NCBI GenBank assembly: GCA_041665345.1
Contig: JBAYJA010000003.1
Location: 1 to 39,201 of the forward strand
Length of the DNA stretch: 39,201 bases
Source: Patescibacteria group bacterium
GTDB lineage: Bacteria; Patescibacteriota; Patescibacteriia; PEXW01
Direction of reading: 5' to 3'
A program made the position numbers and the translations under genes. This document shows, one piece after another, positions 11,058 through 26,785 of the stretch. The notes below the pieces were generated by a model. That model saw nothing but the letters and a program-made list of their open reading frames with translations. It was not told the origin of the DNA and did not search any database. The number at the start of each line of letters is the position of its first letter. Within the stretch, counting starts at the first letter, position 1.

Positions 11058-12716
11058 TTACAGGGCATAAATTTCAGTTGTTTGATTTTGAAAAATGAGG
11101 TGCAACCATGGGTAGTCTTGCGGGGAAAATGCTGCAAAAAATTGCTTCTCCTGTTCAGTCCAAAAGAGGTACCGAATGTGGTTTTCCTGAAAAAAAGCTT
11201 TGGCCGTATTCGCGCTTCGGGATCCTGGAAAAGCTACACGTAGTGCTTGGAACTTCTCAGCGTGATTCGGCGTTTGACTTCCATCCGAAATATACGTGGA
11301 TCGCAAGGTTTGGCTCGACAGGACAAAGCTTGTGGTGTCTGCGCTGAGGGTCAGGCCGGGTGCTTGCTGGCGAAGCCAGTGCATAGCATCAAGTGTTGCT
11401 CGGTCAAACTGGTATACCTCCCGTAGTGTCCCTGGCACCGAACCACCCACGAGCGGCTCCACAACAGTAAACCAGGTTGAAGGACACAGCACCCCTGCAA
11501 ACACCATGCCGCCAGTGGTAAGCCACAACGCCAATGGCACGCGCTGCCGCTGTGCCCATTGCCACACTGGCTCCACCGCAAGCCCTACGACGACAGCCAG
11601 CACGATGCTCAGACCATTGAGAAAACGACTTTGTACTTGCGTGGGTGAGTAGCTGAGGACCAGTGCAATGGCCGGCCAAAGCAAAAAAATGGCTTTGGCT
11701 TTTTGAAAAATGTCCCGATGCTTCCACCCTTGCCAGAGCCATAGCGGAATGTACACGCCATAGCTTATGCACACCACAAGGAGTGATGGACTTGGGGTTA
11801 CATTTTGCTGCGCCCAACCCAGAATACTGTGGTCAAGAAGCAGGGCGCTCACAAAGTAAGCTAACGCTGCCGTAGCTGCTAAACAGAGCATCTCCAGCCG
11901 AACGATGCTCTGCTTCCAGCCGGATGTTCGATACACCGGTTCACGGAAGAACCGAAGCAGGCTAACACCACACACGCAGGCAATGAGAATGACGGCATCG
12001 TATGGATGGAGTAACGCAAGCAGCAACGTACCGGCAAAGAAAACTGACCGGGGGACTTGGCCAGGCGATTCTTCGTCGCGCATTGCGAGCGTTACTAAAA
12101 AAACGAGTAGAGCTAACGTGAGAATGAAAAGTGGTGAATGGGCGATGGACTGAAAGACAGTAAACTGCGGCATAGTAATATCCGCCGGCATAAGATTGGC
12201 ACCTGGTGAAAAAATTGTTGGGAGTTGCTGTACAAATGGCAAAAAATAGAGGCCTACTCCTGAGCCAAAAACGCCGAGCGTCGTTGCTACTATCCGACCC
12301 CGGACGGTTGGTAGAAGCAAACCCGTAAATCGGTAAATGGCGAGTACCAACAGTGGGATGGATGCCAGTCGTACGATGTGAAAGACAAGCGCTGGGGCAA
12401 GGTGGAATACCCATGAAAGAAGCCCAATGACCGCCCACAAAGGCTGGAAGAAGCTCTGCGTATGCGGCTCTGCCGCAAAAACGTTTGCAAAAAAGACGTG
12501 GCCGCTGGTTCGCGCCTGCTCAATGTACGAGAGGTAAATACCATTGTCATTGCGTGCGGTTTCACCAAAACCAATGAACACTTTCTCCGGTGGTAACCGG
12601 AGCACACCTACGAGCAATGGAATCCCGGCACAGAGGATTGCTACCAGGCTCAGCGCCCATAAAAACTGCCGCTCCCTTTTTGCAAACGGGGGAAAAAGGC
12701 GTTCCATACAATGCAA
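11058..12716 (-). CDS. large polytopic membrane protein, GT-C-fold-like (paralog of 8016..9680)
   Basis: 552 aa; same architecture and conserved blocks as 8016..9680 (see that entry). Confidence 0.6.
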   Translation of the reverse strand: MHCMERLFPPFAKRERQFLWALSLVAILCAGIPLLVGVLRLPPEKVFIGFGETARNDNGIYLSYIEQARTSGHVFFANVFAAEPHTQSFFQPLWAVIGLLSWVFHLAPALVFHIVRLASIPLLVLAIYRFTGLLLPTVRGRIVATTLGVFGSGVGLYFLPFVQQLPTIFSPGANLMPADITMPQFTVFQSIAHSPLFILTLALLVFLVTLAMRDEESPGQVPRSVFFAGTLLLALLHPYDAVILIACVCGVSLLRFFREPVYRTSGWKQSIVRLEMLCLAATAALAYFVSALLLDHSILGWAQQNVTPSPSLLVVCISYGVYIPLWLWQGWKHRDIFQKAKAIFLLWPAIALVLSYSPTQVQSRFLNGLSIVLAVVVGLAVEPVWQWAQRQRVPLALWLTTGGMVFAGVLCPSTWFTVVEPLVGGSVPGTLREVYQFDRATLDAMHWLRQQAPGLTLSADTTSFVLSSQTLRSTYISDGSQTPNHAEKFQALRVAFPGSRSANTAKAFFQENHIRYLFWTEQEKQFFAAFSPQDYPWLHLIFQNQTTEIYAL

Positions 12717-13352: not shown

Positions 13353-14942
13353 TTACTCTGGATTCTGCCAAGAGTAAATCCACACCTCAGCATCTTCGTA
13401 CGCCAGTTCCACACCCGGCGTCACGCGAACATTCTCGTACATCTCCCGATGATCTTTTTCCACAAAAATCCACTTCGTATTAAAGAGGTCAAAGGCTTCA
13501 GCCAGGTTGTCCTTTTTCTGGCCCAGGGTGGTCTGCGCCCAGGCCCAGTAGCGGGTGACATCTTGGCGGTAGAGGAAGGTTGGATCCAGACCGGCGATGT
13601 ACGCGTTTACCGTGTTGTAGTAGAACAGCACGGGAAAATCATCCCAGTCACTGTGGAAGACCACGTCGCCAGGTTTGGAATGCTCTGCCATCCAGGTGGC
13701 CGAGGCTTGAAAGTGAGTAGCATTTACTCCCGAAGAAAGGTTCTGCACATTGGTGCGCTGATCCCGCGCAACCACGTATGGCACGCTGACCACAATGTAC
13801 AGCGCGAGTAGCCCCACCACAATTTTTCGACGCTGCCACTGCTGCCACACGCTCTCCCAGATGTGTCGCCAATCGCTGGTTTTCAGCACATCACCCAGCG
13901 TCACTGCTGCAGCCAAAGCAATGAACGGCACGGCATACTCCACGTACCGCCTAGACTTTAAGGTGACAACGCTGAAGAGCAGTGCGAGGAGCACCAGGGT
14001 CCACCCTTTGGCCGTCGTTCGTCGCAGGTGCACAATGGCCAGCACCAGCGCCAGTAGGAACGGAATGATGACCACCACATTATTCCCAATGAACTCGGTG
14101 AAGCCGTACGGATACCACTCCCCGCCCACGCCAATGACATTTCGGTAGTTCACCACGCCAATTTGGATAACCTGCTCCCACAGAAAATGAAAAGTGTTTG
14201 GGAAAAAAGGGTTTGCCACCATGCCCACCCCGGCGCCAGCCAAAACGCAGCCAAAGACCTGCAGCGGTCGGTAGTGCAGAAATCCCTGCCAGGTCCACCA
14301 GGGTTTCCTCCCCGCTTCCGCTGCTTCCCGTGCCCAATGCCGTACCAGGTCAACGACTGCGTACGCAAGCAATGACAGCCCGGCTGCCGCAATGAGCACC
14401 AGAAAACCGCCGTAGAGCAAGACGAAGAACCACGCCAGAAAAAATGTCAGCCACCGCTTCCCCCGGAAGATGCACCACAGACCAATGAGGAGTGTGGCCA
14501 GAGACAAGCTGGGCGCTTTGGCCAAACTCATCCGAAAGGTGAACGGCGTTGCGGCCAATAGCACTGCTGCCCAAATCCAGGCGTGGCGTACCCCAAAACT
14601 GCGAACAAACCACACCGCAACTGTCAGTAAGAGCGATGCAAAAACTACGGTCGCCAGTTTGATACCAGCCAGTGGATCCATGAGCCGCACAAAGGGAACC
14701 AGCGCAACATGATACAACCAGTGCTGGTCAATGTAGTGCTCGCCCAGCGTGGTGAAGGGCAACCAGGGCAATTCTCGCACCGCACCCTGCTGGCTGGTCA
14801 GCACCGCGATCCGCGCATGGTAGAAGGAGTCAGGATCGGCAAAGACCGCGCTCCGTTGCATCAGGAAAAAAGCAACGAAGCTCACCACAAACGTACCTAG
14901 GAGCATGAGGAGCGTCGTGTGGCTCCGCCAGTGAATAGTCAT
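13353..14942 (-). CDS. polytopic membrane protein, ArnT/PMT-like GT-C glycosyltransferase candidate
   Basis: 530 aa from ATG 14942 (the ORF-track start 15122 includes the noncoding conserved element). First loop FADPDSFYHARIA resembles the PDE.RYAEI loop motif of ArnT/PMT_2-type GT-C enzymes. About 12 TM helices, C-terminal soluble domain. Confidence 0.5.
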   Translation of the reverse strand: MTIHWRSHTTLLMLLGTFVVSFVAFFLMQRSAVFADPDSFYHARIAVLTSQQGAVRELPWLPFTTLGEHYIDQHWLYHVALVPFVRLMDPLAGIKLATVVFASLLLTVAVWFVRSFGVRHAWIWAAVLLAATPFTFRMSLAKAPSLSLATLLIGLWCIFRGKRWLTFFLAWFFVLLYGGFLVLIAAAGLSLLAYAVVDLVRHWAREAAEAGRKPWWTWQGFLHYRPLQVFGCVLAGAGVGMVANPFFPNTFHFLWEQVIQIGVVNYRNVIGVGGEWYPYGFTEFIGNNVVVIIPFLLALVLAIVHLRRTTAKGWTLVLLALLFSVVTLKSRRYVEYAVPFIALAAAVTLGDVLKTSDWRHIWESVWQQWQRRKIVVGLLALYIVVSVPYVVARDQRTNVQNLSSGVNATHFQASATWMAEHSKPGDVVFHSDWDDFPVLFYYNTVNAYIAGLDPTFLYRQDVTRYWAWAQTTLGQKKDNLAEAFDLFNTKWIFVEKDHREMYENVRVTPGVELAYEDAEVWIYSWQNPE

Positions 14943-15035
14943 GTAGGAAGTATACCGTATTGGAGGGGTGGAGGGTTTGGGTGTGGCAGCGAGTATGGTT
15001 AGAGGGTGGCGGTTTAGGATGGGTAGAGGTACGAG
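14943..15035 (-). promoter_or_regulatory. conserved C-rich upstream element, copy B (inverted relative to copy A)
   Basis: Minus-strand reading: ...CCTCTACCCATCC...CCATACTCGCTGCCACACCCAAACCCTCCACCCCTCCAATACGGTATACTTCCTAC|ATG. About 85% identical to copy A over about 70 nt; abuts ATG 14942 with no SD. Confidence 0.6.
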
Positions 15036-15204
15036 TGAAATACAATACTCCTCCCCTCCTTTCGAAGGAGCCGTCTGCGGCGGGTGCGAGCGAGCACAGC
15101 ACCTTAGGTAGGGGGAGGTCACCCTTACCGAGAAAACAAAATCACGCAGAATAAAAGTCTGGAAAAAACAAAAACATATTCTACTTCCTTCTTCTCAATC
15201 CCCT

Positions 15205-16647: not shown

Positions 16648-19600
16648 ATGGAAATCAAGTCAAAATTTCACTTTTTTCGTCAGAACAACTTCACCTACCT
16701 GGACAGCGCCGCCACAACCCAAGTACCGGATGCGGTGACGCGTGTGGTGGAGCAGTCTTTGCAGTACAAAGGCAACCCGAATCGTAGTGCGCACGCCGTA
16801 GCGGAAAAAAATGAACAGGCGTTGCAAGCCGCCCGGGAGAATATTGCCGGCTTCATTGGCGCCACGGCAGAGGAACTCATCTTCACAAATAACACTACGG
16901 ACAGTATCAACCTTGCGGTGGATGGTATTGCCGACCATGTAAAGCCTGGTGACGAAATTGTCATCGCCGTGTCTGAACATCACTCCAACATGCTGCCCTA
17001 CACCAAGCTGGTAAAGCGTGGGGCGAAAATCCGCATCGTAGGCATCAAAGACGGCGTGGTCAATCCAAACGATGTGCAGAAAGCGCTTACGCCCAAAACC
17101 CGTATCGTGGCCGTGGGACACTGCTCCAATGTCCTCGGGAACATCAACGACGTGGTAGCTATTGGCAAACTCGTTAAAAACCACGACAAGAAAATCTTCT
17201 TCATTGTGGATGGCGCGCAAGCCGTGGCGCACATCCCAGTAGACGTCCAGGCAATGCAGGCGGACTTCTACGCGTTCTCGGGCCACAAAATGTACGGGCC
17301 AGATGGCGTAGGTGGATTGTACATTGCCCGAAAAATCCACCACCTGCTCACTCCGACACGTATGGGTGGCGGCACCGTGCAGAATGTGGCCATCACCTTT
17401 GATAAAACTGGTGATATCATCTCCCCTGACTACTTCCCGTCGCTCATCACGTTGGAAGGTGGCACGCCAAACCTGTCCAACATTCTCGGCCTTTCTCGCG
17501 CCGTCAACTTCATTCGTTCTATTGGCTTCCCAGATATTCAGGCACACGAACGCGGGCTGCTAAAACGTTTGCTGGATGGGTTGGCGACAATTCCTGGGGT
17601 GCAGGTCTTTGGTCCCACCGACCTCCAACAAAAAATTGGCGTCCTCTCTTTTGGTTTGCAAGACACGAACACCAAAGAACTCGGCGAACACCTTGGTCGC
17701 CAAAAGATCTGCATTCGCTACGGCGCACATTGTGCCTTCCCGCTAGCGGAAAAGCTGGGCCAAGAAACCCTGCGCATTAGTCTGGGCGTGTACAACACCG
17801 AAGAAGACATTGACCACGTGCTCAACGAAATGCGATTCTTCTTCGATAAGAAACAAGGGCGCATTACCAACCCCAACCTGGAGCCCCTGCGCAACAAGCT
17901 CTACTACCGCAGCACCCATGTGGTGAATTCCTATGCTGCCCTGGCCGAAAAGCTGCAGCAATCCCTCTACGGCCCACAGGATACGGAAATTATTGTCATG
18001 GGTGGCCACTTCTTGGGCATACCAGACATGCAGGAAAACCGCTTCTGGCCCAGCATTGCAACCATGGTACCCGAGCGCCTGCACGGCCTCATGGATGAGT
18101 TTGGCATGACGAGCTTTCCGCTTTTCACGTGGCGCTTGGCTTGTCGGACGGTTGCGGATTTGAAAGCGCACGGATACCAAGCAAAACTGGCAATTATTGC
18201 CAATGACACAACGGGAATGAATGAACTTCGTAACTCTGAAGCCAACACAACAAAGAAAACCGCTGAGCAATACCGAACTGAGTTACTAGATACTTTTCAA
18301 GAAGACGGTCATTTACCAAATCGCTATAGTGAAATTCTCAAAGAGCACGGATTGCATAAGCGAGATATTCTCAAGAATGGTGACAAATTCGTATTTCAAG
18401 AAACCTTACTCCGAGCCAACTTCAAAAAATTTGTTGATGGTAATAAAAATTTCTTTGATGGCATCATTGCCTACACAAAAAAGGCAGAGGAGAATATCGA
18501 CTTATCAATTAAACTCCTCGATAATCAGGAAATTGCTTCCTGCACGTTTAATACATTTCAATCAAAAACTGGTGGGAAGTTTTGCATTGTTGAATTGTGT
18601 CAATTTATTGCCGAACTCTTTGGTAAACCAGAACTGATTACATTCCCCTATGTATCACAGCGCGTACTGAAACCAAAGGTGACAGCAAATCACAAGATTC
18701 TTTTTGCAATCACGCCCGCGATGTGCGACAACGCTGTGACGCGATCCGCGGAACTCTACACCAAGCTTTTCCTCCAGGAGCAGAGTAAAGGATCATTTAA
18801 ATTCTTCAACTTGCCCCTAGGCCCAAATGCTGAGCGCAGCTTAGCTATGGGCGCAGAACTCAAGTATGTCTCAGACAAAGACAATCTTGAGGTACTTGAT
18901 ATTGAGCATGAGCCCGCATTTCCAGATCTCTGGCGCTTGGCTGAGTACAAGCTCATCTACAATGCTCCTGCCTATGTAACTGAAATGACCGCGCTTTTTG
19001 CGAAGCTGGGCCTCACCAAGAAATCCGCACTGCTGGATACCTGTGTGGGTCCAGGCTTCTTTGCCACTGAGCTGTTGCGGCAAGGTTACAATCTGCATAC
19101 CGCAGACAAGAGTGAAACCATGATGGCACCATTCCGCGCAACCCTGAAAGAGCTTGGTATCAACCACCAGCCCACAGTGAGCACGTGGCTTGATTTGCCA
19201 AAACACTTCGAGGCAAATTCCATGGATATGCTCTTCAACCGTGGGAACACCTTCATCTACGCGGCAGGCGGCTGGCATGAGCGAATCACCGTGGACCGAG
19301 AAAAATCTTTGGCGAAATATTTAGAGACGTTACGCGTCTACTACAGCCTTCTCAAGCCAGGTGGCTACCTCTACGTAGATAAATTCCGTGATGCAGAAAT
19401 CCCAGATAAAAAAGTTGTTGCTCGGCTGTACATTCAGGAGCCTGCGCAGCAAAAAGACGTAGTCTTCTACGTCGAACGCAAACCAGAAGATCACATTCGC
19501 TTTGCGCAAATGCTCTTGCGCGACACCCAAGGCAAAGAGACTGGATTACCAAACATGGCCTATGACTTGAGCGTAGAAGAAATGGAAATGTTGCTACAGA

Positions 19601-19677
19601 AAGCTGGGTTCAAGAACGTCCAACAACTCAAGCTCGCACAAGAAAAACACTTCGTCGTCTGGCTAGCCCAGAAATAG
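16648..19677 (+). CDS. 1009-aa multidomain protein: N-terminal SufS-like cysteine desulfurase (class V PLP fold), unknown central module, C-terminal GNMT-like class I SAM methyltransferase
   Basis: aa 1-~400: YLDSAATTQ, PLP-Lys motif FSGHKMYGPDGVGGLY, catalytic-Cys loop RYGAHCAFPL (cf. SufS RTGHHCAQP). aa ~730-1009: LLDTCVGPGFFA (motif I), GNTFIYAAGGW, LLKPGGYLYVDKFRD, resembling glycine/sarcosine N-methyltransferases (NSFxH, LLVIDHRNYD). aa ~400-730 unrecognised. 18230-18660 is an A/T-rich in-frame segment. Confidence 0.8.
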   Translation: MEIKSKFHFFRQNNFTYLDSAATTQVPDAVTRVVEQSLQYKGNPNRSAHAVAEKNEQALQAARENIAGFIGATAEELIFTNNTTDSINLAVDGIADHVKPGDEIVIAVSEHHSNMLPYTKLVKRGAKIRIVGIKDGVVNPNDVQKALTPKTRIVAVGHCSNVLGNINDVVAIGKLVKNHDKKIFFIVDGAQAVAHIPVDVQAMQADFYAFSGHKMYGPDGVGGLYIARKIHHLLTPTRMGGGTVQNVAITFDKTGDIISPDYFPSLITLEGGTPNLSNILGLSRAVNFIRSIGFPDIQAHERGLLKRLLDGLATIPGVQVFGPTDLQQKIGVLSFGLQDTNTKELGEHLGRQKICIRYGAHCAFPLAEKLGQETLRISLGVYNTEEDIDHVLNEMRFFFDKKQGRITNPNLEPLRNKLYYRSTHVVNSYAALAEKLQQSLYGPQDTEIIVMGGHFLGIPDMQENRFWPSIATMVPERLHGLMDEFGMTSFPLFTWRLACRTVADLKAHGYQAKLAIIANDTTGMNELRNSEANTTKKTAEQYRTELLDTFQEDGHLPNRYSEILKEHGLHKRDILKNGDKFVFQETLLRANFKKFVDGNKNFFDGIIAYTKKAEENIDLSIKLLDNQEIASCTFNTFQSKTGGKFCIVELCQFIAELFGKPELITFPYVSQRVLKPKVTANHKILFAITPAMCDNAVTRSAELYTKLFLQEQSKGSFKFFNLPLGPNAERSLAMGAELKYVSDKDNLEVLDIEHEPAFPDLWRLAEYKLIYNAPAYVTEMTALFAKLGLTKKSALLDTCVGPGFFATELLRQGYNLHTADKSETMMAPFRATLKELGINHQPTVSTWLDLPKHFEANSMDMLFNRGNTFIYAAGGWHERITVDREKSLAKYLETLRVYYSLLKPGGYLYVDKFRDAEIPDKKVVARLYIQEPAQQKDVVFYVERKPEDHIRFAQMLLRDTQGKETGLPNMAYDLSVEEMEMLLQKAGFKNVQQLKLAQEKHFVVWLAQK

Positions 19678-19685
19678 ACCCAACC

Positions 19686-20531
19686 ATGATGTCTGAAAAA
19701 AATCACGCGCCAAATCAGGACGCGGATAAGGAAAAAACCGAATACAAGACATTCCGCCTAGATCACGAGCCCACGTTTGCGGAGCTGTGGGAGCTGTGCG
19801 TGAATGAGCTGCTCTATAATGCGCCAAAGCATTACGATGAAATTGAGGCACTTTGGGAGCGACAAGGAATAACCAAAGAATCCAAAATTATTGATGTTGC
19901 TGCTGGGAGTGGCTTCCCCGCACTTGGTTTGCTGCAACGAGGGTGGAACATAGACTCCGCTGATGGCTTTACGGATGAGGTGGAACTCTTCAACAAACGT
20001 GCGGAAGAGGCGGGGTTGCCCGAACGCTGCGCCCAAGTGCTATGGGCGGATTTGCTCAAACAGTACCCAAAAGAAGCCTACGACTTCTTACTATGCAGAG
20101 GTAATTCATTCATATACGCGCCGGGGGGTTGGAATGCTGAAGCGCCGATAACCCCGCAGGCTGCACTGGAAGCCTACACCAACACAGCAAAAAACTTCTA
20201 CGATTTGCTCAAACCCGGTGGGCAGATGTACATCGATAAATTCAAAGATACCGAAATCTCGCATAAAGAAACCGTTGCGCGCTTGCAAATTGGTAACGCG
20301 ACCCCAGAAGACCTCATTTTCTGGACCCAACGCTTTTCGGAGCAGCACATTCGCCGTGCGTCCATGATTCGCCGCAAACAGGATGGTACCGAAACTGGCA
20401 CACCGAACATTTCGTATGACCTTACCTTTCCAGAAATGGAAAAGGCATTAACGACGGCTGGTTTTTCCAAGATTGAACAGCAGCAGCTTGAAACAGAAAA
20501 AGTTTTCAACACCTGGATTGCAACAAAGTAA
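19686..20531 (+). CDS. GNMT-like class I SAM-dependent methyltransferase, standalone paralog of the C-terminal domain of the upstream 1009-aa protein
   Basis: 281 aa, co-linear with aa ~730-1009 of the upstream protein: DHEPTFAELWEL/EHEPAFPDLWRL, IDVAAGSGFPA/LDTCVGPGFFA, CRGNSFIYAPGGW/NRGNTFIYAAGGW, LLKPGGQMYIDKFKDTEI/LLKPGGYLYVDKFRDAEI, C-terminal ETEKVFNTWIATK/AQEKHFVVWLAQK. Confidence 0.75.
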   Translation: MMSEKNHAPNQDADKEKTEYKTFRLDHEPTFAELWELCVNELLYNAPKHYDEIEALWERQGITKESKIIDVAAGSGFPALGLLQRGWNIDSADGFTDEVELFNKRAEEAGLPERCAQVLWADLLKQYPKEAYDFLLCRGNSFIYAPGGWNAEAPITPQAALEAYTNTAKNFYDLLKPGGQMYIDKFKDTEISHKETVARLQIGNATPEDLIFWTQRFSEQHIRRASMIRRKQDGTETGTPNISYDLTFPEMEKALTTAGFSKIEQQQLETEKVFNTWIATK

Positions 20532-20626: not shown

Positions 20627-21343
20627 ATGTCTGGACATTCCAAGTGGTCTACTATTAAACGGCAAAAGGGTGTTGCGGATGCCAAGCGCAGCTCAGTCTT
20701 TACCAAACTTGGCAAAGCAATTGTGGTGGCTGCCCGGCTGGGCGGAGCTGACCCGGCTATGAACTTCCGTCTTCGGCTGGCTGTGGAAAAAGCACGCGAG
20801 GCCAGCATGCCCAAAGACAACATTGAGCGAGCCATTGCCAAGGGTAGTGGTACGGCCGAGGGTCAGCAGTTGGAAGAGGTAACCTACGAAGGTTTTGGAC
20901 CTGGTGGCACCGCCATCATCGTGGAAGCGGTGACCGATAACCGCAACCGCACTGTGCATGAGGTAAAAACCTTATTTAGCAAGCACGGCGGTACCATGGG
21001 GAATGAGAATAGTGTACGGTGGCAATTTGACCGACGGGGGGTGCTTCGTATTGCCGCAGAACACCTACCCAAGGATCACGACACCTTTGCACTGCAGATG
21101 ATTGAAGAAGGCGCCGAAGATGTGAAAGATGATCCAGAAGGAATCACTTTGCTGACGCAACCCGAGGCATTGGAAAAAGTGAAAGTCGCGCTTGGGACCA
21201 CCCCTGTGGCATCTGCGGACATTGAATTCGTGCCCAAAACTCCCCTCCCTCTTTCTCCGGCGGACGCGGAGAAGCTGCACACGCTCACCGGCATTCTTGA
21301 AGACCACGCTGATGTCACCAACGTCTGGACGAACGGTGCGTAG
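20627..21343 (+). CDS. yebC: YebC/PmpR-family transcriptional regulatory protein
   Basis: MSGHSKWSTIKRQKG...FTKLGKAI...AR.GGADP..N..LR.A...A...MPKDNIERAI...G, full-length 238 aa. Confidence 0.9.
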   Translation: MSGHSKWSTIKRQKGVADAKRSSVFTKLGKAIVVAARLGGADPAMNFRLRLAVEKAREASMPKDNIERAIAKGSGTAEGQQLEEVTYEGFGPGGTAIIVEAVTDNRNRTVHEVKTLFSKHGGTMGNENSVRWQFDRRGVLRIAAEHLPKDHDTFALQMIEEGAEDVKDDPEGITLLTQPEALEKVKVALGTTPVASADIEFVPKTPLPLSPADAEKLHTLTGILEDHADVTNVWTNGA

Positions 21344-21374
21344 CCCCCATCGTAGCTCGAAGAGCGAAGGTGGG

Positions 21375-21842
21375 CGCGTTATCCTTGGCATTGACCCGGG
21401 GTTTGGGCGCGTGGGCTGGGGCGTCATCCAGCAAACTGCCAACAAACTAACGGCTATTGACTACGGGGTGATTGAAACCCCAGCGGGCACCCCTTTTGCC
21501 AAGCGCTTGCAGCTCATCTACAGCAAATTAACTGAGCTGATCCATTCCTACAAACCGCAAGTCGGTGGGGTTGAACGCCTCTTCTTCTCGCAGAACACCA
21601 CAACCGCCATGCAGGTGAGTGAGGCGCGCGGGGTGATCCTGCTCACGCTGGCGCAAGCCAAGATTCCCGTGCACGAGTGTACGCCGCAAGCCGTGAAGCA
21701 GACGCTCTCCAGCTACGGCCGCGCGGACAAAGCCCAGGTCCAGCGCATGGTCGCTACACTCCTTCATCTCCCTTCCATTCCCAAGCCTGACGATATCGCG
21801 GATGCCTTGGCCATTGCCATCACCGCCGCAACTTCCACATGA
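21375..21842 (+). CDS. ruvC: crossover junction endodeoxyribonuclease RuvC (5' end/start codon uncertain)
   Basis: RVILGIDPGFGRVGWGV... catalytic N-terminus and ...DIADALAIAIT C-terminus. There is no in-frame ATG/GTG/TTG between the yebC stop (21343) and the conserved ILGIDPG block, so the exact start is unresolved (nonstandard initiator or sequence error). The ORF-track start at 21192 overlaps yebC and is not credible. Confidence 0.75.
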   Translation, partial: RVILGIDPGFGRVGWGVIQQTANKLTAIDYGVIETPAGTPFAKRLQLIYSKLTELIHSYKPQVGGVERLFFSQNTTTAMQVSEARGVILLTLAQAKIPVHECTPQAVKQTLSSYGRADKAQVQRMVATLLHLPSIPKPDDIADALAIAITAATST

Positions 21843-23098
21843 AACGCATCGCCCTCATCAACGTGCACTGCGATCCACTCGAAAGCCTTGGATCCGCAGA
21901 AGCCGGCGGTCAAAATGTCTACGTCCAGCACCTTGCTAAGGCACTTGGCAAACGCGGTTACTATGTGGATGTCTTTTCCCGGCTCAACTCTCGCTCCAAA
22001 AAGGAACGCGTCCGGGTTTCCAAGCACGTGCAATTCATCCGCCTCGTCGCTGGCCACCGGCAGTTCATCCCCAAGAATAAACTGGGGCCACTGCTGCCTG
22101 AATTCATTAGCAACTTCCTGGCCTGGCAGAAACGTGAGGGTGTGCGGTACGACCTGCTGCACTCACACTACTGGGAGGCGGGCTGGGTAACCATGCAGCT
22201 GAAGTACATACTCAAAGTCCCACAGGTCCACACCTTCCACAGCTTGGGCATCATGCGCTACAACGCGCTGAAAGGATTTCGGGAGCAGAGCCTGGATACC
22301 ACGGAAATGAAGAAGCGTATTGCCATTGAAAAAGAAATTACGGAAAAAGCTGAGTGCATTCTGAGCACTAGCCCGTACGAACGTGAGTACCTGGAGAAGC
22401 ACTATGCTGCAAAATCTGAGAACATTCGCGTTGTCCCTTGTGGCGTGGATTTGCAACGCTTCCGACCCATTGACCGAAATGAGGCACGAAAAAAAATTAA
22501 TGCGCCAAACGGCGACAACCTTATTCTCTACACTGGTCGCATTGAGTGGCGCAAGGGCATTGGCACCCTGGCCATTGGCGTCGCTAAACTCTTCAAGCAC
22601 CACCCAGAGCTGCGAGGAAAAACCTGGCTGTACATTGTCGGCGGCAACCTGGGCCGCCGGGCAGAGCCCGAAGTCCGGGAGGAAATCAAACGACTGAAAG
22701 ATGTGTGCCGAGAGTATGGGATACGTGATCGCACCGTATTTACCGGCGCCGTGCAGCAAGAAAAACTCCACTTCTACTACTCAGCGGCAAACGTCTGCGT
22801 CATCCCCTCCTACTACGAGCCTTTTGGCATGGTGCCGTTGGAAGCCATGGCCTGCAAAGTGCCGGTGATCGCCTCTGATACCGGTGGCCTGCCGTACACG
22901 GTTCGGAATATGAAGAGCGGGATTTTAGTCCCCGTTCGCAACCCGGGTGCCATCGCCCATCGCTTAGCCGACGTCCTGACCAAGCGCGAGCTGGCAGAGA
23001 AACTGGTGCGAGGAGGCCGGGAACTTGCAAAGACCACCTTTAGCTGGCGGCTGATTGCGAAGGGCGTCGCCGAGGTGTACGAACGGCTGGTGAAGTAA
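21839..23098 (+). CDS. GT4 glycosyltransferase, sucrose-phosphate-synthase-like (SPS/MshA-type GGQNVYV family)
   Basis: N-terminal MKRIALINVHCDPLESLGSAEAGGQNVYVQHLAKALGKRGYYVDVFSR (SPS/MshA-type signature); C-terminal GT-B E-x7-E region YEPFGMVPLEAMA; 419 aa, like minimal cyanobacterial SPS. Start overlaps the ruvC stop (ATGA). Confidence 0.7.
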   Translation: MKRIALINVHCDPLESLGSAEAGGQNVYVQHLAKALGKRGYYVDVFSRLNSRSKKERVRVSKHVQFIRLVAGHRQFIPKNKLGPLLPEFISNFLAWQKREGVRYDLLHSHYWEAGWVTMQLKYILKVPQVHTFHSLGIMRYNALKGFREQSLDTTEMKKRIAIEKEITEKAECILSTSPYEREYLEKHYAAKSENIRVVPCGVDLQRFRPIDRNEARKKINAPNGDNLILYTGRIEWRKGIGTLAIGVAKLFKHHPELRGKTWLYIVGGNLGRRAEPEVREEIKRLKDVCREYGIRDRTVFTGAVQQEKLHFYYSAANVCVIPSYYEPFGMVPLEAMACKVPVIASDTGGLPYTVRNMKSGILVPVRNPGAIAHRLADVLTKRELAEKLVRGGRELAKTTFSWRLIAKGVAEVYERLVK

Positions 23099-23175
23099 GA
23101 GTTTCAACTATACGAATCGACTCTACTGCGATTTTTTGTAGCCTAAAATGGGACTTATAGTGTAAACTGGAAACC

Positions 23176-23943
23176 ATGGATGACCATCCAACTCCTTCAA
23201 CGATTAATTTTTCCCTTACTCTTCCGCTCTATAACGAGGGGAGTATTCTGCAAAAAAATTTAACTTCTATCCACACAATTTTATCTGGGAAAGGGTCATT
23301 TTCCTTCGAAGTTATCGTTATTGATGATGCTAGTAAAGACGACACAGCTCGCAGCGCAAAACAGTTTTGTGACCATCTACCAAATTGGCATTTCCTGCAA
23401 AATGAAAAAAATCTTGGCCGGGGTGGTACGGTAATGCGGGGTTTTCGTGAATCACGGGGAACGATCGTTGGCTTTATTGACGTCGACTGCGAAGCTTCGC
23501 CAATGTACCTGTTGGATTTCATTCCGGATTTACTCGCACATAAAGTTGATGGGATTACCGGCATGCGCATATACCCATTTTCATTTTCAACATTCCTTCG
23601 CGCTGGGACAAGCTACCTCTATCGCCAACTTGTGCAACTATTTTTACGCGTAGCGTACAAGGACAGGCAATCTGGGTATAAAACATTTCGTCGGGAAGCA
23701 ATTTTACCACTCCTAGCGTACACAAAAAATCAGCATTGGTTTTGGGACACGGAGATTATGGTCATTGCACACCTGGCTGGTTTACGTATTGAGGAAAGGC
23801 CCATTTTGTTCTACCGTGACACTGCAAAAAAATCTACGGTGAAACTCTTTCGAGACAGTATGCTGATGGTGAGGGAACTCTTTCGCTTTCGAGCACGTAT
23901 GCCGCAACTTGCGGCTGACTTAGCCGAACGCACGAACCGCTAA
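23176..23943 (+). CDS. GT2 glycosyltransferase (polyprenyl-phosphate sugar transferase, DPM1/GtrB-like)
   Basis: LTLPLYNEGSIL, VIVIDDASKDDT (DxD-type nucleotide-sugar-binding acidic motif), second acidic motif IDVDCE; 255 aa. Visibly more A/T-rich than the flanking genes. Confidence 0.8.
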   Translation: MDDHPTPSTINFSLTLPLYNEGSILQKNLTSIHTILSGKGSFSFEVIVIDDASKDDTARSAKQFCDHLPNWHFLQNEKNLGRGGTVMRGFRESRGTIVGFIDVDCEASPMYLLDFIPDLLAHKVDGITGMRIYPFSFSTFLRAGTSYLYRQLVQLFLRVAYKDRQSGYKTFRREAILPLLAYTKNQHWFWDTEIMVIAHLAGLRIEERPILFYRDTAKKSTVKLFRDSMLMVRELFRFRARMPQLAADLAERTNR

Positions 23944-23945
23944 GC

Positions 23946-24686
23946 ATGGAGTCGCAGCTGTACCACACTTTTGCGCAAAATGAGATGACTCATTGGTGGT
24001 TTGTGGGTCGGCGGGAAATTTTTTCCGCGGTCTTCAAGAAATTACTGCAAAAAAAAGAATTACAAATCTTAGACGTAGGGTGCGGAACAGGGGGCAACCT
24101 ACCACTCCTCGCTGGCTATGGAAACGTCGTTGGGATTGATAATAGCCCCACGGCCGTGGCGTACGCAAAAACCCAAGGATACACATCCGTAATTTGTGCC
24201 GATGCATCCAAGCTCCCATTTGCAGACAACTCCTTTGACTGTGTCGTGGCAATTGACATTATCGAGCACATGCAAGACGATTCCGCATTCGTCAAAGAGC
24301 TCCACCGGGTACTCACACCCGAGGGATTTGCGGTACTTTCAACGGCCGCTTTTTCTTTTTTGTGGAGCTCACACGACACTCGAAACCAACATTGGCGACG
24401 GTACACCAAAAAGCAGCTTACTGCGTGCTTTCCAAAGAATCTCTGGCTTTCGAAGATCGTGCGATACTACAACTTCATTTTTTTTCCAGTGATTGCAGTC
24501 ATTCGCCTGTGCCAAAAGTTGATACCGGAAAGGACCCCAAAAGAGGGGGCGGCGTGGGAACTTGCAACCCCACCCACCCTATTCAATGCTGTACTTCACA
24601 GTGTCCTTGCCGCCGAAAGATTCTTTTTGCGATTTCCAATACCCTGGGGGGTTTCTCTACTAGCGGTATACCAAAAAAGGAAGTGA
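23946..24686 (+). CDS. class I SAM-dependent methyltransferase
   Basis: Motif I ILDVGCGTGGNL, GIDNSP, FDCVVAIDIIEHMQD; 246 aa; part of the A/T-rich cassette. Confidence 0.8.
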   Translation: MESQLYHTFAQNEMTHWWFVGRREIFSAVFKKLLQKKELQILDVGCGTGGNLPLLAGYGNVVGIDNSPTAVAYAKTQGYTSVICADASKLPFADNSFDCVVAIDIIEHMQDDSAFVKELHRVLTPEGFAVLSTAAFSFLWSSHDTRNQHWRRYTKKQLTACFPKNLWLSKIVRYYNFIFFPVIAVIRLCQKLIPERTPKEGAAWELATPPTLFNAVLHSVLAAERFFLRFPIPWGVSLLAVYQKRK

Positions 24687-24691
24687 GGCAG

Positions 24692-25585
24692 ATGCATATC
24701 GCCATGTTTGGGGGGACAGGATACGTTGGGAGTGCTTTGCGCGCACATTTGGCTAGCCAACGTATTCGAGTGAGTGTTTTTTCACCCCACTCCCCTAGCC
24801 CACTCTACCCTCTGGAAACCCACGTGGTTGCCGACCCATGGTCTGCCAGAATTGAACCCGGGGTATTTACGCATATCCTTGACTTCTACGGCGTATCTGG
24901 AGATGCGGCCTGTGCTCGGAATCCGCAGGAGGCAGCGTATAGAAACGTAGACTCGGTTCGTGCGCTCATGCATGCAGCGGCGGGTACAGGCATTGATAGA
25001 TTCGTCTATGTCTCTACTGCTTCAGTGTTTGATGATGGTGTCCAGAAAACGGGGAATGAATTTTTTGAAAACGATGTGCCTCGTCCTGCAACAGTGTACG
25101 GCGATACAAAGCGAATTGCGGAAAATCTACTCCTATCACAAGAAAAGGTACCCTGCACAATTATTCGCCATCCAACAATCTATGGCCTATCGCCGTGCAT
25201 GCGATGGGACACATTGATGCAATTTTGCGTTCAGCAAGCAAAAAAAGAGGGGGTGGTGCGCATGTTTGGGGATGGGAGTGCGTTTCGCCCCCTCGCCGCG
25301 TTGTCACACGTTGTTGCTGGATACGCACATGTGCTACATTCTCCCCCACCTTCACAGTCTTGCTTCCACATTGTTTCTGAGAATGAGCCAATTCGTAACT
25401 ACCTAGAGAGAATCCAGCAGGTTGCCAAGGAATGTGGGCAGCGTATTAGCGTGGAAACGGTAGAGCAGTCCTACGTCCCAAGCTATCGGGTGCACAGTTC
25501 TTTCCCCTATACCAACCGACCAGAGTATTCTTTCGAGCTCCTTCAAGCTATTTGGAAAGCGGCGGTCGGTCGCAATCACCTGTAG
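24692..25585 (+). CDS. NAD-dependent epimerase/dehydratase (SDR family)
   Basis: Start at ATG 24692 with SD AAGGAAGTGAGG. N-terminal GGTGYVGS Rossmann motif, catalytic YGDTK (YxxxK). The ORF-track 5' extension to 24362 overlaps the methyltransferase and is rejected. Confidence 0.8.
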   Translation: MHIAMFGGTGYVGSALRAHLASQRIRVSVFSPHSPSPLYPLETHVVADPWSARIEPGVFTHILDFYGVSGDAACARNPQEAAYRNVDSVRALMHAAAGTGIDRFVYVSTASVFDDGVQKTGNEFFENDVPRPATVYGDTKRIAENLLLSQEKVPCTIIRHPTIYGLSPCMRWDTLMQFCVQQAKKEGVVRMFGDGSAFRPLAALSHVVAGYAHVLHSPPPSQSCFHIVSENEPIRNYLERIQQVAKECGQRISVETVEQSYVPSYRVHSSFPYTNRPEYSFELLQAIWKAAVGRNHL

Positions 25586-25646
25586 CTGGCGCTTGATTGC
25601 CAAAGGCGTGGCCGAAGTGTACGAACGAATGGTGGAGAAAAAATAA
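25576..25646 (+). pseudogene. relic 3'-end fragment of an SPS-like GT4 gene (duplicate of 23034-23098)
   Basis: CACCTGTAGCTGGCGCTTGATTGCCAAAGGCGTGGCCGAAGTGTACGAACGAATGGTGGAG...TAA is about 80% identical to the last about 65 nt of the GT4 at 21839..23098 (..SWRLIAKGVAEVYERLVK*). It would encode SWRLIAKGVAEVYERMVEKK*. The epimerase stop TAG lies inside it. Confidence 0.6.
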
Positions 25647-25657
25647 CTTTACCGGCG

Positions 25658-26731
25658 CTAGGTCTCCGTACGATCGGTTCGGATTTTTTGTATTCGCTCC
25701 GCCCGCTGCAGCACTTCCGCAGCGTAGCTAATACTCTCAGGACCAAGCCGATCACCTTTTTCAACGTAGATTGCTTTCAGGGCTCCATCTTCTCCCATGA
25801 CCCTACGGAAGCTACTCTTCCCAGGTTTTTCCGGGGCTGACGCATCAACCGCGGAAACAAGTTCTGACTTTGCGCCACCAACCACCACAGCTTGCAACTT
25901 CCCTGACCGCATGAGCATGTCGGTGTCATTCCCGCTGTCACCCGCCACCAAACCTTTTTCCACATTCGTAAGCTTCGCTACGTAGTCAACGGCTCCGGCT
26001 TTGGTTATGGGCAGAACGTCCAGGCAGTACTTTTTTCGTGGTTCACCCTCGTGCTCACGGTTGTAGCCAATTTCCTCGCAGGCCACCAGCTCCTGACCGG
26101 GAAAGGCTGTGGCCGCCTCTTGCATCACTCCCTCCACTCCTGCCGGTGCGTCAGCGAAAAAGTAAAAGCTGAGCTTGAATTCCTGCACCGCCTGGTTCAC
26201 CGCTTCGGGCTCCGGGTTAGCGAGGTACCGCCTTTCTGCCTCGGGTTTCTGGTATACGACCTCAGCAGCTTGGGCAGGTTGACTGACGAGAAAGGCACTG
26301 GCGGCAGCGGCAATTTCTGGCCGGTTGAAGTGCTTTTCTTCCAGCAGCATCTTCCGATACGCTTCATCTCTTCGGTACGTACCGTCGGGCTGCAGGACGT
26401 GGATTTCCGTTCCCACAGAACCAATGAGCACTGGGAATTTTGGCAACTCCCCAGCTGCCTGCCGCTTCTGAATACCAGCTAGGTCATTCCCGGTCACGGC
26501 AACCAGTGGATACTCCAGCTCCTCCGCCTTCGCAAAAAGCACTTCCGATTCCTGCTGCCGGTCTTTGCGGTGGAAGGTGTTATCAATGTCCGTAAACCCA
26601 ACAGTAAAGCCCTCACCCCGTTCAGCTTGCTTGGCTTTCATTGCTAGATACGGTGAATCTCGGTAAACCGCCAAAGCCTGCTCGAGTTCTGCATCTGGGT
26701 TGTACTGCTCTCTACCTTCAAATGACATCAC
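25658..26731 (-). CDS. HAD-IIB phosphatase, sucrose-phosphate-phosphatase (SPP)-like
   Basis: HAD motif I FTDIDNTF (DxDxT), motif II VAVTGN, motifs III/IV K...GDSGNDTDML characteristic of the SPP/S6PP family; 357 aa. Confidence 0.7.
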   Translation of the reverse strand: MMSFEGREQYNPDAELEQALAVYRDSPYLAMKAKQAERGEGFTVGFTDIDNTFHRKDRQQESEVLFAKAEELEYPLVAVTGNDLAGIQKRQAAGELPKFPVLIGSVGTEIHVLQPDGTYRRDEAYRKMLLEEKHFNRPEIAAAASAFLVSQPAQAAEVVYQKPEAERRYLANPEPEAVNQAVQEFKLSFYFFADAPAGVEGVMQEAATAFPGQELVACEEIGYNREHEGEPRKKYCLDVLPITKAGAVDYVAKLTNVEKGLVAGDSGNDTDMLMRSGKLQAVVVGGAKSELVSAVDASAPEKPGKSSFRRVMGEDGALKAIYVEKGDRLGPESISYAAEVLQRAERIQKIRTDRTET

Positions 26732-26785
26732 GATATGGTGTAAGTAAGGTATACTACCAGTACTCTACCACTTACCTTTGCCCGT

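What the first reader, a model, noticed from the sequence alone, without database searches (positions are those of the whole stretch)
16648..20531. Unusual 1009-aa fusion of a SufS-like cysteine desulfurase, an unknown ~330-aa module and a GNMT-like methyltransferase, followed by a standalone paralog of the methyltransferase domain
The N-terminal ~400 aa carry the SufS hallmarks: the PLP-lysine motif FSGHKMYGPDGVGG and the catalytic-cysteine loop RYGAHCAFPL (cf. SufS RTGHHCAQP). The C-terminal ~280 aa are a class I methyltransferase (LLDTCVGPGFFA, NRGNTFIYAAGGW, LLKPGGYLYVDKFRD). These blocks parallel the glycine/sarcosine N-methyltransferase family. The next gene (19686..20531, 9-nt gap) is a co-linear paralog of that methyltransferase domain. 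So the locus pairs one sulfur-mobilising PLP enzyme with two paralogous small-molecule methyltransferase units, as in the GSMT/SDMT betaine pathway. No suf scaffold genes (sufBCD/sufE) are nearby. That makes this more likely a dedicated pathway, for example a methylated S- or N-containing osmolyte or a thio-cofactor, than housekeeping Fe-S assembly. The central ~330 aa (aa ~400-730) match nothing I recognise.
Basis: partly seen in the sequence, partly recalled or inferred. Interest (0 to 1): 0.85.

Follow-up and report, generated by a model that had tools for sequence, protein, structure and literature searches.

The report
Sulfur-inserting, methylating three-domain fusion enzyme
A rare 1009-residue enzyme of ultra-small bacteria and archaea joins a domain that strips sulfur from cysteine, a previously unrecognised tRNA-synthetase-like domain and a methyltransferase; together they most likely build an unknown sulfur-containing, methylated small molecule rather than serve routine iron-sulfur assembly.

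Summary
ORF 16648..19677 (1009 aa) is a SufS-type cysteine desulfurase (aa 1-398), with every catalytic residue intact, fused to an unannotated module (aa 401-745) and a class I methyltransferase (aa 746-1009). A 41%-identical standalone paralogue (19686..20531) follows after 9 nt.

The desulfurase-central fusion recurs in 44 related loci. By record titles and gene context these include Patescibacteria and DPANN archaea, plus MAGs labelled Proteobacteria. The only conserved neighbour is the second methyltransferase, and no suf genes occur.

The methyltransferases are nearest to GSMT/GNMT, but they lack the glycine-carboxylate arginine.

Best reading (about 0.45): a self-contained, horizontally mobile enzyme in which cysteine gives a persulfide, ATP activates a substrate that is then thiolated, and SAM methylates the product. 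The product is unknown and I found no literature on it.

The parts
16648..19677 (+). Three-domain fusion gene (1009 aa)
   Evidence: ORF list. The same architecture, about 1005-1027 aa, is found in most of 44 related loci.
16648..17841 (+). Domain 1: SufS-type (type II) PLP cysteine desulfurase, aa 1-398
   Evidence: Pfam Aminotran_5 E 1.2e-105 and NCBIfam SufS subfamily 343 bits. Solved SufS structures match at E 6e-76 over aa 14-396.
17287..17289 (+). PLP-binding Lys214 (SGHK motif)
   Evidence: Aligns with the SufS PLP lysine. Invariant in 18 of 18 family members. Coordinates.
17731..17733 (+). Catalytic (persulfide-forming) Cys362 in RYGAHCAFP
   Evidence: Aligns with the SufS R-x-G-H-H-C loop. 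R357, H361 and C362 are invariant in 18 of 18.
17848..18882 (+). Domain 2: new class-I-aaRS-like (Rossmann/HUP) module, aa 401-745
18004..18009 (+). Invariant Gly453-His454 directly after the first core strand, where a HIGH-type nucleotide motif would sit
   Evidence: Invariant in 29 sequences that include distant standalone homologues and in 18 of 18 fusions. Strand E46-51 of the model ends just before it. The assignment as HIGH equivalent is inference.
18202..18207 (+). Invariant Asn519-Asp520 (IANDTTG) at the end of a core strand
18541..18543 (+). Conserved Cys632 (first of three conserved cysteines)
   Evidence: Nearly invariant in alignment A4. Invariant in 18 of 18 fusions.
18565..18585 (+). 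KTGGKFC loop with invariant Gly642 and Cys646 at a helix N-terminus
18715..18726 (+). PAMC motif: invariant Pro690 and Cys693 at a strand-to-helix junction
18883..19677 (+). Domain 3 (MT1): class I SAM methyltransferase of the GNMT/GSMT superfamily, aa 746-1009
   Evidence: Pfam methyltransferase hits. Motif I LLDTCVGPGF lies at 19030-19059. Family profile against PDB: GSMT E 1.4e-14, GNMT 4e-8.
19686..20531 (+). MT2: standalone paralogue of domain 3 (281 aa), probably co-transcribed (9-nt gap)
   Evidence: 41% identity to MT1, E 9e-75. GSMT 5h02 matches at E 1.8e-8. All 31 family-invariant residues are shared by MT1 and MT2. A separate MT gene follows the fusion in 18 of 44 loci.

Best explanation
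The locus encodes a self-contained sulfur-insertion and methylation enzyme that works on a small molecule.

Step 1 is supported by sequence. The SufS-type PLP domain converts L-cysteine to alanine and leaves a persulfide on Cys362.

Step 2 is inferred from fold and conservation. The central class-I-aaRS-like domain binds ATP at its Gly-His site and adenylates a substrate, most simply a carboxylate as in aaRS chemistry. Its three conserved cysteines (C632, C646, C693) receive or relay the persulfide sulfur, either directly or through a bound metal or Fe-S centre. The sulfur then displaces AMP and gives a thiolated product, for example a thiocarboxylate.

Step 3 is inferred. The fused GNMT/GSMT-superfamily methyltransferase and its paralogue MT2 add one or more methyl groups from SAM, to the new sulfur or to an amine of the same molecule.

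The unit carries everything it needs. It travels between genomes as one or two genes and is not part of Fe-S cluster assembly. The product is unknown.
For: All SufS catalytic residues are present and invariant in 18 family members. The central module has the class I aaRS catalytic fold with high model confidence, by two independent structure-comparison methods. It has an invariant GH after strand 1, ND after a core strand, and three conserved Cys that persist even in 25%-identical standalone homologues. Desulfurase and central module are always contiguous in one frame in 44 loci. The methyltransferase is fused in most loci and a second one follows in 18. There is no conserved neighbour and no suf/SufE/SufU gene in the window or in the loci. 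A short central-module homologue sits 1 nt upstream of a standalone MT2-like gene in L060 (hhalign probability 95.7%), which links these two modules independently of the fusion. Both MT paralogues keep SAM motif I and the acidic ribose-binding residue. Two precedents fit this logic. YcfA/YcfC in 6-thioguanine biosynthesis combines adenylation with a PLP enzyme to install sulfur (PMC12494993). Hydrazine synthetases carry MetRS-like domains fused to another catalytic domain (PMC12376268 abstract).
Against: No substrate, product or activity is known. ATP binding is inferred only from the fold and a two-residue motif. There is no conserved KMSKS-like motif after the last strand, and no sequence-level similarity to any aaRS. 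I could not check whether the three cysteines cluster in space, because no model coordinates were available. The methyltransferase is absent from some family members, so methylation is not obligatory. Nothing excludes a macromolecular substrate.
Confidence: 0.45

Rival explanations
1. Same product class by a YcfA/YcfC-type route. The central domain adenylates the substrate and adds free L-cysteine through its thiol. The SufS-like PLP domain then acts as a C-S lyase on that S-adduct and leaves the sulfur behind. No enzyme persulfide is involved.
For: The YcfA-YcfC system works exactly this way, with adenylation, L-Cys addition and a PLP C-S lyase (PMC12494993). A standalone central-module homologue (P0032) lies about 700 nt from a 614-aa protein with a cystathionine-beta-lyase-like PLP domain.
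Against: The persulfide-forming Cys362 and its RxGxHC loop are invariant in all 18 fusions examined, and a pure C-S lyase would not need them. The domain scores far higher with SufS models than with lyase models such as EgtE (343 against 54 bits).
Confidence: 0.15
2. An RNA-modifying enzyme. The aaRS-like domain binds tRNA (for instance the acceptor end). The fusion thiolates a nucleoside, or an aminoacyl moiety as SepCysS does, and then methylates it.
For: The class I aaRS fold. Desulfurase plus an ATP-dependent enzyme is the standard logic of tRNA thiolation (reviews listed). The central module is basic in many members, with pI 8.5-9.4. Standalone homologues sit among translation genes (S6, S18, EF-P) in Paceibacteria.
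Against: There is no anticodon-binding, THUMP, PUA or other RNA-binding domain, since the module runs straight into the methyltransferase. The pI is acidic or neutral in several members, 5.0-7.0. The methyltransferases are nearest to small-molecule N-methyltransferases. The distribution is sporadic and island-like, and integrase or recombinase genes lie near the gene in the two loci (L059, L061) where that context was examined, which is unusual for a core tRNA-modification enzyme.
Confidence: 0.15
3. The central module does not use ATP. It is a cysteine-rich sulfur acceptor or carrier (a functional analogue of SufE/SufU) or a metal-binding scaffold, and the methyltransferases methylate the mobilised sulfur (or selenium) itself. 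The products would be methanethiol- or dimethyl(di)sulfide-type compounds, or methylated selenium from selenocysteine.
For: Three conserved Cys. Type II desulfurases normally need a dedicated acceptor (established knowledge). No KMSKS motif. Weak TehB-like hits for the methyltransferases. SufS/CsdB enzymes also act as selenocysteine lyases (names of PDB entries 1jf9 and 1i29).
Against: The invariant Gly-His (where HIGH would sit) and ND motifs, and a 345-aa Rossmann domain with a CP1-like insertion, are more than a sulfur carrier needs. Standalone homologues exist with no desulfurase fused to them.
Confidence: 0.12
4. This would be a GSMT/SDMT-like betaine-type osmolyte pathway in which the two methyltransferases successively N-methylate a glycine-like amine, and the desulfurase supplies sulfur for a sulfur-containing osmolyte.
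For: GSMT is the best solved relative and the best-scoring methyltransferase family in NCBIfam. Two paralogous units recall GSMT plus SDMT. A remote relative (P0064) is a natural fusion of a true GSMT-like domain (230 bits) with a domain of this family.
Against: Scores are 28-37 bits against a family cut-off of 350. The glycine-carboxylate arginine is replaced. Part of the family has no methyltransferase. The analogy gives no role to the aaRS-like domain, and no transporter or osmoregulatory neighbour is conserved.
Confidence: 0.08
5. Ordinary housekeeping Fe-S cluster or thio-cofactor sulfur supply by a SufS that happens to carry extra domains.
For: The SufS domain is fully intact. Many small genomes have few desulfurases (general knowledge).
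Against: No sufBCD, sufE, sufU or iscU gene is next to the gene in the window or in any of 44 loci. The gene is rare, with 16 loci in 185,579 species genomes. Integrase or recombinase genes lie 4-6 kb from it in L059 and L061. L060, a related organism's contig, carries a separate IscS/NifU pair.
Confidence: 0.05

Closest known systems
SufS / CsdA type II cysteine desulfurases (Pfam PF00266; PDB 8d8s, 5j8q, 1jf9)
   Same: Domain 1 aligns over its whole length (E 6e-76). It keeps the PLP lysine, the EHH(S/A)N histidines, the RxGxHC catalytic cysteine loop and the substrate-carboxylate arginine.
   Different: It scores below the SufS subfamily cut-off (343 against 475 bits). It has no SufE/SufU/SufBCD partner genes. 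It is covalently fused to two further catalytic domains.
Class I aminoacyl-tRNA synthetase catalytic domains and their non-canonical relatives (ArgRS, MetRS, CysRS, MshC, BshC, cyclodipeptide synthases, MetRS-like domains of hydrazine synthetases)
   Different: Sequence identity is 8-12% and no aaRS Pfam or PDB sequence hit is found. There is no KMSKS motif and no anticodon-binding domain. It has three conserved cysteines in positions that do not match the CysRS/MshC zinc ligands as I recall them (own knowledge, not tested).
Desulfurase plus PP-loop ATP-pyrophosphatase sulfur-insertion systems (IscS with ThiI/MnmA/TtuA, DndA-DndC, SspA-SspD, LarE, YcfA-YcfC)
   Same: The overall logic is the same: cysteine-derived sulfur is delivered to a substrate activated by adenylation. 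The PADLOC hits to DndA/SspA reflect the shared desulfurase. YcfA/YcfC is the nearest small-molecule precedent.
Glycine/sarcosine N-methyltransferase (GSMT, PDB 5h02) and glycine N-methyltransferase (GNMT, PDB 1d2g)
   Same: These are the best solved relatives of both methyltransferase units. They share the N-terminal W/Y region, motif I (D-x-[AC]-x-G-x-G-F), the acidic ribose ligand, W before strand 4 and the [RL]GN[ST]F motif.
   Different: The match reaches only 28-37 bits against the curated GSMT model, whose cut-off is 350. The carboxylate-binding arginine is not conserved. The family has its own motifs, A-x-GGW and Y-x-DK-x-x-D-x-E.

Membership tests
SufS-type (type II) cysteine desulfurase | Fold-type I PLP enzyme with the PLP lysine in an S-x-H-K motif | tested here: met
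   SGHK with K214 aligns with the SufS lysine. Invariant in 18 of 18.
SufS-type (type II) cysteine desulfurase | Catalytic cysteine in the short R-x-G-x-H-C loop, plus the substrate-binding His and Arg residues | tested here: met
   R357, H361, C362, H111 and R376 are aligned and invariant.
SufS-type (type II) cysteine desulfurase | Score above the curated family threshold (NCBIfam TIGR01979, 475 bits) | tested here: not met
   343 bits. This is a divergent relative, not an equivalog.
SufS-type (type II) cysteine desulfurase | Genomic association with sufBCD and a SufE/SufU acceptor | tested here: not met
   None in the window. No conserved neighbour family other than the second methyltransferase in 44 related loci.
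SufS-type (type II) cysteine desulfurase | Cysteine desulfurase activity (alanine plus persulfide) | not testable with these tools
   Needs an enzyme assay.
Class I aminoacyl-tRNA synthetase (catalytic domain) | Rossmann-type catalytic fold with a CP1-like insertion | tested here: met
Class I aminoacyl-tRNA synthetase (catalytic domain) | HIGH signature after the first strand | tested here: inconclusive
   Only G453-H454 is conserved ([M]-[GAC]-G-H-F). It sits right after strand E46-51 but is followed by a beta-hairpin, not directly by a helix.
Class I aminoacyl-tRNA synthetase (catalytic domain) | KMSKS signature after the last core strand | tested here: not met
   No conserved lysine-containing motif follows strand E316-324. 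The sequence there is PLGPN and varies in the homologues.
Class I aminoacyl-tRNA synthetase (catalytic domain) | Anticodon-binding or other tRNA-binding domain | tested here: not met
   The module ends at aa 745 and the methyltransferase starts at aa 746.
Class I aminoacyl-tRNA synthetase (catalytic domain) | Sequence-level family membership (Pfam tRNA-synt_1 families) | tested here: not met
   No Pfam or NCBIfam hit at E<=1. A family profile finds no PDB sequence.
GNMT/GSMT glycine N-methyltransferases | Class I SAM fold with motif I and the acidic ribose ligand | tested here: met
   D70, G74, G76, F77 and D93 (MT2 numbering) are invariant in 17 sequences.
GNMT/GSMT glycine N-methyltransferases | Closest solved relatives are GSMT and GNMT | tested here: met
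   5h02 at E 1.8e-8 with a single sequence and 1.4e-14 with the profile. GNMT at 5e-6 and 4e-8.
GNMT/GSMT glycine N-methyltransferases | Score above the curated threshold (NCBIfam NF051855, 350 bits) | tested here: not met
   27.9 bits (MT1) and 36.5 bits (MT2).
GNMT/GSMT glycine N-methyltransferases | Arginine that binds the glycine carboxylate (GNMT R175, GSMT R167; residue roles from my own knowledge of the published structures) | tested here: not met
   In the profile alignment, GSMT D-Q-R-N-Y-D aligns with D-K-[F/H/Y]-[K/R]-D. The Arg position holds Phe, His or Tyr.
PP-loop ATP-pyrophosphatase sulfurtransferases (ThiI, MnmA, TtuA, DndC, YcfA) | SGGxDS PP-loop after strand 1 and a PP-loop alpha/beta fold | tested here: not met
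SufE / SufU sulfur acceptors | SufE or IscU/SufU fold and family signature | tested here: not met
   No Pfam hit to SufE or NifU_N. The fold search returns aaRS, not SufE/IscU.

The most novel reading that the evidence does not exclude
The central module founds a previously unrecognised class of ATP-dependent sulfur-insertion enzymes built on the class I aminoacyl-tRNA-synthetase scaffold. It would stand beside the PP-loop and E1-like classes. Here it is fused to its own cysteine desulfurase and a tailoring methyltransferase, so a single mobile gene lets metabolically minimal CPR bacteria and DPANN archaea make an unknown thiolated, methylated metabolite such as a thioacid or methyl thioester, an antimetabolite or a cofactor. 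The standalone relatives paired with TrmB-family genes would be a second, housekeeping branch of the same enzyme class.
Probability: 0.3. Interest if true: 0.85.

Novelty: new variant of a known kind. Interest (0 to 1): 0.72.

Why it matters
CPR bacteria and DPANN archaea have very little biosynthetic capacity, so a conserved 1000-residue enzyme that carries its own sulfur source, activation module and methyltransferase points to chemistry that matters for their episymbiotic lifestyle and that current annotation misses. The central module is a new protein family: it has no Pfam or NCBIfam model, and the first word-indexed search of 5.8 billion protein clusters found only six proteins. It has the fold of class I aaRS. 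If it activates a substrate for thiolation, it adds a third structural solution to biological sulfur insertion and a new example of aaRS scaffolds recruited for metabolism. Because the unit is one or two genes with no required partners, it can be tested directly by heterologous expression.

Tried and rejected
1. Sequence searches of the central module found nothing: Pfam, NCBIfam and PDB by phmmer, then a 29-sequence profile against PDB.

2. The first AF2 model, from a 7-sequence alignment, was mediocre (pLDDT 65). I replaced it with one from a 25-sequence alignment.

3. The AFDB50 fold library was not available. No model coordinates were available, so I could not measure the spatial clustering of the three cysteines or their distance to the GH site.

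4. Riboswitch and RNA clues: Rfam found nothing in the window or in the 267-nt upstream spacer. Promoter and terminator scans were at chance level.

5. Defence-system reading: PADLOC gave only generic DndA/SspA (desulfurase) and mad2 (methyltransferase) similarity, with no partner genes. Rejected.

6. Mobile-element carriers: tblastn found no match in plasmid or phage collections.

7. Conserved-neighbour analysis across 44 loci found only the second methyltransferase. The antisense 'families' are shadows of the conserved coding frame. Mur genes adjoin the fusion in only 3-4 related CPR loci, which I judged to be synteny, not function.

8. SufE/SufU identity of the central module: rejected.

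9. Six literature searches found no description of this fusion or of the central family. The only SufS fusion met was CysH-SufS in Methanomicrobiales.

10. The N-terminus of P0069 is not homologous by BLAST to the TrmB-like neighbours of the standalone homologues.

Full report
**Observation**

The window contains the two ORFs exactly as described: 16648..19677 (+, 1009 aa) and 19686..20531 (+, 281 aa), separated by 9 nt.

Residues 16-390 of the long protein match Pfam Aminotran_5 (E 1.2e-105) and the NCBIfam SufS subfamily. The SufS score is 343 bits, below the 475-bit cut-off. The domain aligns end to end with solved SufS structures (8d8s E 6e-76, 5j8q E 5e-72). The alignment covers the EHHSN histidines, the PLP lysine (SGHK, K214), the persulfide-forming cysteine loop (RYGAHC, C362) and the carboxylate-binding arginine R376.

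Residues ~785-994 are a class I SAM methyltransferase. The downstream gene is a full-length paralogue of that domain (41% identity, E 9e-75).

**The central module**

Residues ~401-745 have no Pfam, NCBIfam or PDB sequence match, even with a 29-sequence family profile. The family is rare. A word-indexed search of 5.8 billion protein clusters returned six proteins. An exhaustive HMMER search of 1.84 billion cluster representatives added only a handful of full or partial fusions, plus about ten distant standalone homologues of 300-390 aa.

A first AlphaFold2 model from seven sequences was mediocre (pLDDT 65). A 25-sequence alignment that included the distant homologues gave pLDDT 92.9 and pTM 0.93.

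- Foldseek independently put ArgRS first (E 2.8e-4, probability 1.0), followed by cyclodipeptide synthases and CysRS.

The module is therefore a deeply divergent class-I-aaRS-like Rossmann domain with an inserted subdomain and no anticodon-binding domain.

**Conserved residues of the central module**

Across the fusions and the standalone homologues (down to 20-31% identity), these residues are invariant: G453-H454, N519, Y560, E585, G642, C646, G659, P690 and C693. D520 and C632 are nearly invariant. Within 18 fusion proteins the motifs MGGHF, IANDTTG, C632, KTGGKFC and PAMC are essentially fixed.

In the model, Gly-His follows the first core strand directly (E46-51). That is the position of the HIGH nucleotide-binding motif. 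Asn-Asp ends another core strand. C646 and C693 sit at helix N-termini at strand-to-helix junctions. These positions suggest one active-site cleft with an ATP site and a cysteine triad, but this is inference. No conserved KMSKS-like motif follows the last strand, and I could not obtain coordinates to measure distances.

**Distribution and context**

A scan of one genome per species (GTDB) found 16 loci. By record titles they are:

- Patescibacteria/CPR: Falkowbacteria, Saccharibacteria, Peregrinibacteria/Peribacteria, Paceibacterota and Vogelbacteria
- DPANN archaea: Woesearchaeota and Nanoarchaeota
- two MAGs labelled Bdellovibrionales and Gammaproteobacteria

A metagenome scan added 30 more loci. 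An archaeal context is independently visible in L061, which carries ribosomal proteins S27e and S13_N. The window itself looks CPR-like, with a T4SS-type pilin, DUF2079, glycosyltransferases, YebC, RuvC and PBP1. It lies on a 176.6-kb metagenome contig.

The desulfurase and the central module are contiguous in one frame in every locus that reaches that far. Four arrangements occur:

- Most loci carry the full three-domain protein of 1005-1027 aa.
- L009, L016, L052 and (frameshifted) L001 carry only desulfurase plus central module.
- L012 and L056 have the methyltransferase as a separate gene.
- L004/L037 carry two complete fusions in tandem.

All-against-all clustering of neighbouring ORFs in 44 loci found one conserved neighbour only: a second methyltransferase gene immediately downstream, in 18 loci. 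This is a lower bound, since many contigs end there.

No suf, isc, SufE or SufU gene occurs in the window, small ORFs included. Integrase or recombinase genes lie 4-6 kb away in L059 and L061. Fusion proteins from bacterial and archaeal contigs are 53-56% identical. Together these facts indicate horizontal spread of a self-sufficient unit. Plasmid and phage collections hold no relative.

**Independent links between the modules**

In L060 a standalone MT2-like gene (P0272) is preceded, with a 1-nt gap, by a 237-aa protein. That protein is a short homologue of the central module (hhalign probability 95.7%, E 9e-9; motifs IMGGHYW, MMND, VPGCS). So the central module and the methyltransferase are also linked where no desulfurase is fused.

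One standalone homologue (P0032) lies about 700 nt from a 614-aa protein with a cystathionine-beta-lyase-like PLP domain. This single case hints at the same PLP/sulfur theme.

Four different standalone homologues in CPR contigs are each paired with a divergently transcribed TrmB-family gene, in three different wider contexts. This pairing is unexplained.

**The methyltransferases**

MT1 and MT2 share all 31 family-invariant residues. These include motif I (D-x-x-x-G-x-G-F), the acidic ribose ligand (D93 in MT2), R-G-N-[ST]-F-I-Y-A-x-G-G-W and Y-x-D-K-x-x-D-x-E. Both therefore look catalytically competent.

Their best solved relatives are GSMT (5h02; E 1.8e-8 with one sequence, 1.4e-14 with the family profile, over most of the domain) and GNMT. 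The best NCBIfam methyltransferase model is bacterial glycine/sarcosine N-methyltransferase, but at 28-37 bits against a cut-off of 350. In the profile alignment the GSMT motif D-Q-R(167)-N-Y-D aligns with D-K-[F/H/Y]-[K/R]-D. GSMT R167 corresponds to GNMT R175 and binds the glycine carboxylate; I take those residue roles from my own knowledge of the published structures. That arginine is not conserved here.

The units belong to the GNMT/GSMT superfamily but are not glycine or sarcosine methyltransferases by these tests. Their acceptor atom (N or S) cannot be told from sequence. A remote relative, P0064, fuses a true GSMT-like domain (230 bits) to a domain of this broader family.

**Mechanism proposed**

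Shown by sequence: an intact SufS-type active site, two intact SAM-binding methyltransferase units, and a class-I-aaRS-fold module with conserved Gly-His, Asn-Asp and three cysteines.

Inferred:

1. The desulfurase forms a persulfide on C362.
2. The central module binds ATP and adenylates a substrate. A carboxylate is the simplest reading of aaRS chemistry.
3. Its cysteines take over the sulfur, either as a persulfide relay or as ligands of a metal or Fe-S centre. Type II desulfurases normally need such an acceptor.
4. The sulfur displaces AMP.
5. The methyltransferase(s) methylate the product.

Two precedents support the logic. The YcfA-YcfC system couples adenylation and a PLP enzyme to install sulfur in 6-thioguanine (PMC12494993). 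Hydrazine synthetases use a MetRS-like domain fused to another catalytic domain (PMC12376268 abstract). I give this general scheme about 0.45. The specific thiocarboxylate version deserves much less.

**Rival readings**

- A YcfA/YcfC-type route in which the PLP domain is a C-S lyase. The invariant C362 loop argues against it.
- A tRNA-modifying enzyme. There is no RNA-binding domain, the methyltransferases are of small-molecule type, and the distribution is sporadic with mobile-element genes near the gene in two loci.
- A non-ATP sulfur carrier feeding direct methylation of sulfur or selenium.
- Housekeeping Fe-S supply, which is the least likely.

**Comparison with known systems and novelty**

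It is a SufS relative but not a Suf-system member. It has an aaRS fold but fails the KMSKS, anticodon-domain and sequence-family tests. It is a GNMT/GSMT-superfamily methyltransferase but fails the threshold and substrate-arginine tests.

Six full-text literature searches found no description of the fusion or of the central family. The only SufS fusion met was CysH-SufS in Methanomicrobiales.

I rate it a new variant of a known kind, namely sulfur insertion by a desulfurase plus an ATP-dependent activator, built around a new protein family. Interest is 0.72.

Noticed in passing
L020:4979-7083, L023:4033-6077, L025:4063-5903, L027:4036-6044: Four different standalone homologues of the central module each sit next to a divergently transcribed TrmB-family HTH gene of 261-274 aa, with a 140-200 nt spacer. 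This holds in three different wider contexts. In Paceibacteria the pair lies between rpsR and efp. A conserved regulator or partner relationship looks likely.
   Followed up: partly
L060:7286-8789: A 237-aa short homologue of the central module (hhalign probability 95.7%) lies 1 nt upstream of a standalone MT2-like methyltransferase. An AsnC/Lrp-type double-HTH gene is divergent upstream, and an IscS-NifU pair lies 5-7 kb away. A similar AsnC/Lrp-type gene sits between the fusion and the MT2-like gene in L045 and L046.
   Followed up: partly
L004:8393-14561 and L037:5393-11561: Two complete three-domain fusion genes sit in tandem, about 50-60% identical to the window protein. No standalone MT2 is present here.
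   Followed up: no
L001:8650-10957: On a 241-kb contig the desulfurase and the central module lie in different frames, which suggests a frameshift or pseudogene. No methyltransferase follows. The next ~2 kb had no called genes.
   Followed up: no
L018:3450-5294: A 614-aa protein with a weak cystathionine-beta-lyase-like PLP domain (Pfam 28.4 bits) lies ~700 nt upstream of the standalone central-module homologue P0032.
   Followed up: partly
P0064, P0069, P0097 (proteins): Other architectures exist in the wider methyltransferase family. P0064 is a GSMT-like domain (230 bits) fused to a domain of this family. P0069 and P0097 have a winged-helix N-terminus, then ~250 aa of unknown sequence, then a domain of this family.
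   Followed up: partly
L006:5915-8366, L015:4966-7745, L017:12300-15791: In three or four CPR loci the fusion gene directly adjoins peptidoglycan genes on the same strand (MurB and Mur ligases). I judged this to be synteny of related genomes, but did not test it.
   Followed up: partly
L059:14050-15708 and L061:9471-10640: A serine recombinase (L059) and a phage-type integrase plus a reverse transcriptase (L061) lie 4-6 kb downstream of the fusion+MT2 pair. This suggests a location on genomic islands.
   Followed up: no
window 4275-5894: A gene with a T4SS-pilin domain (4275-5072) is followed by two small paralogous membrane ORFs (5095-5427, 5538-5894). These share an ILYGGF motif and look like tandem pilin-like genes typical of CPR.
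   Followed up: no
window 21839-32030: A long sugar-metabolism cluster on the + strand holds four GT4 glycosyltransferases, one GT2 glycosyltransferase, a methyltransferase, an epimerase/dehydratase, an APH-type kinase and a GalT-like gene. A sucrose-phosphate-phosphatase-like HAD gene lies on the - strand (25658-26731).
   Followed up: no
window 2875-4278, 8016-12716, 13353-15122, 32027-36046: Seven large ORFs (418-640 aa) have no Pfam match at E<=0.001. Several look like membrane or surface proteins.
   Followed up: no
window 21192-21842: The mechanical RuvC ORF starts at a TTG 150 nt inside the YebC gene. The RuvC Pfam domain begins at residue 64, and the public gene call is 168 aa, so the true start is probably near 21336.
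   Followed up: partly
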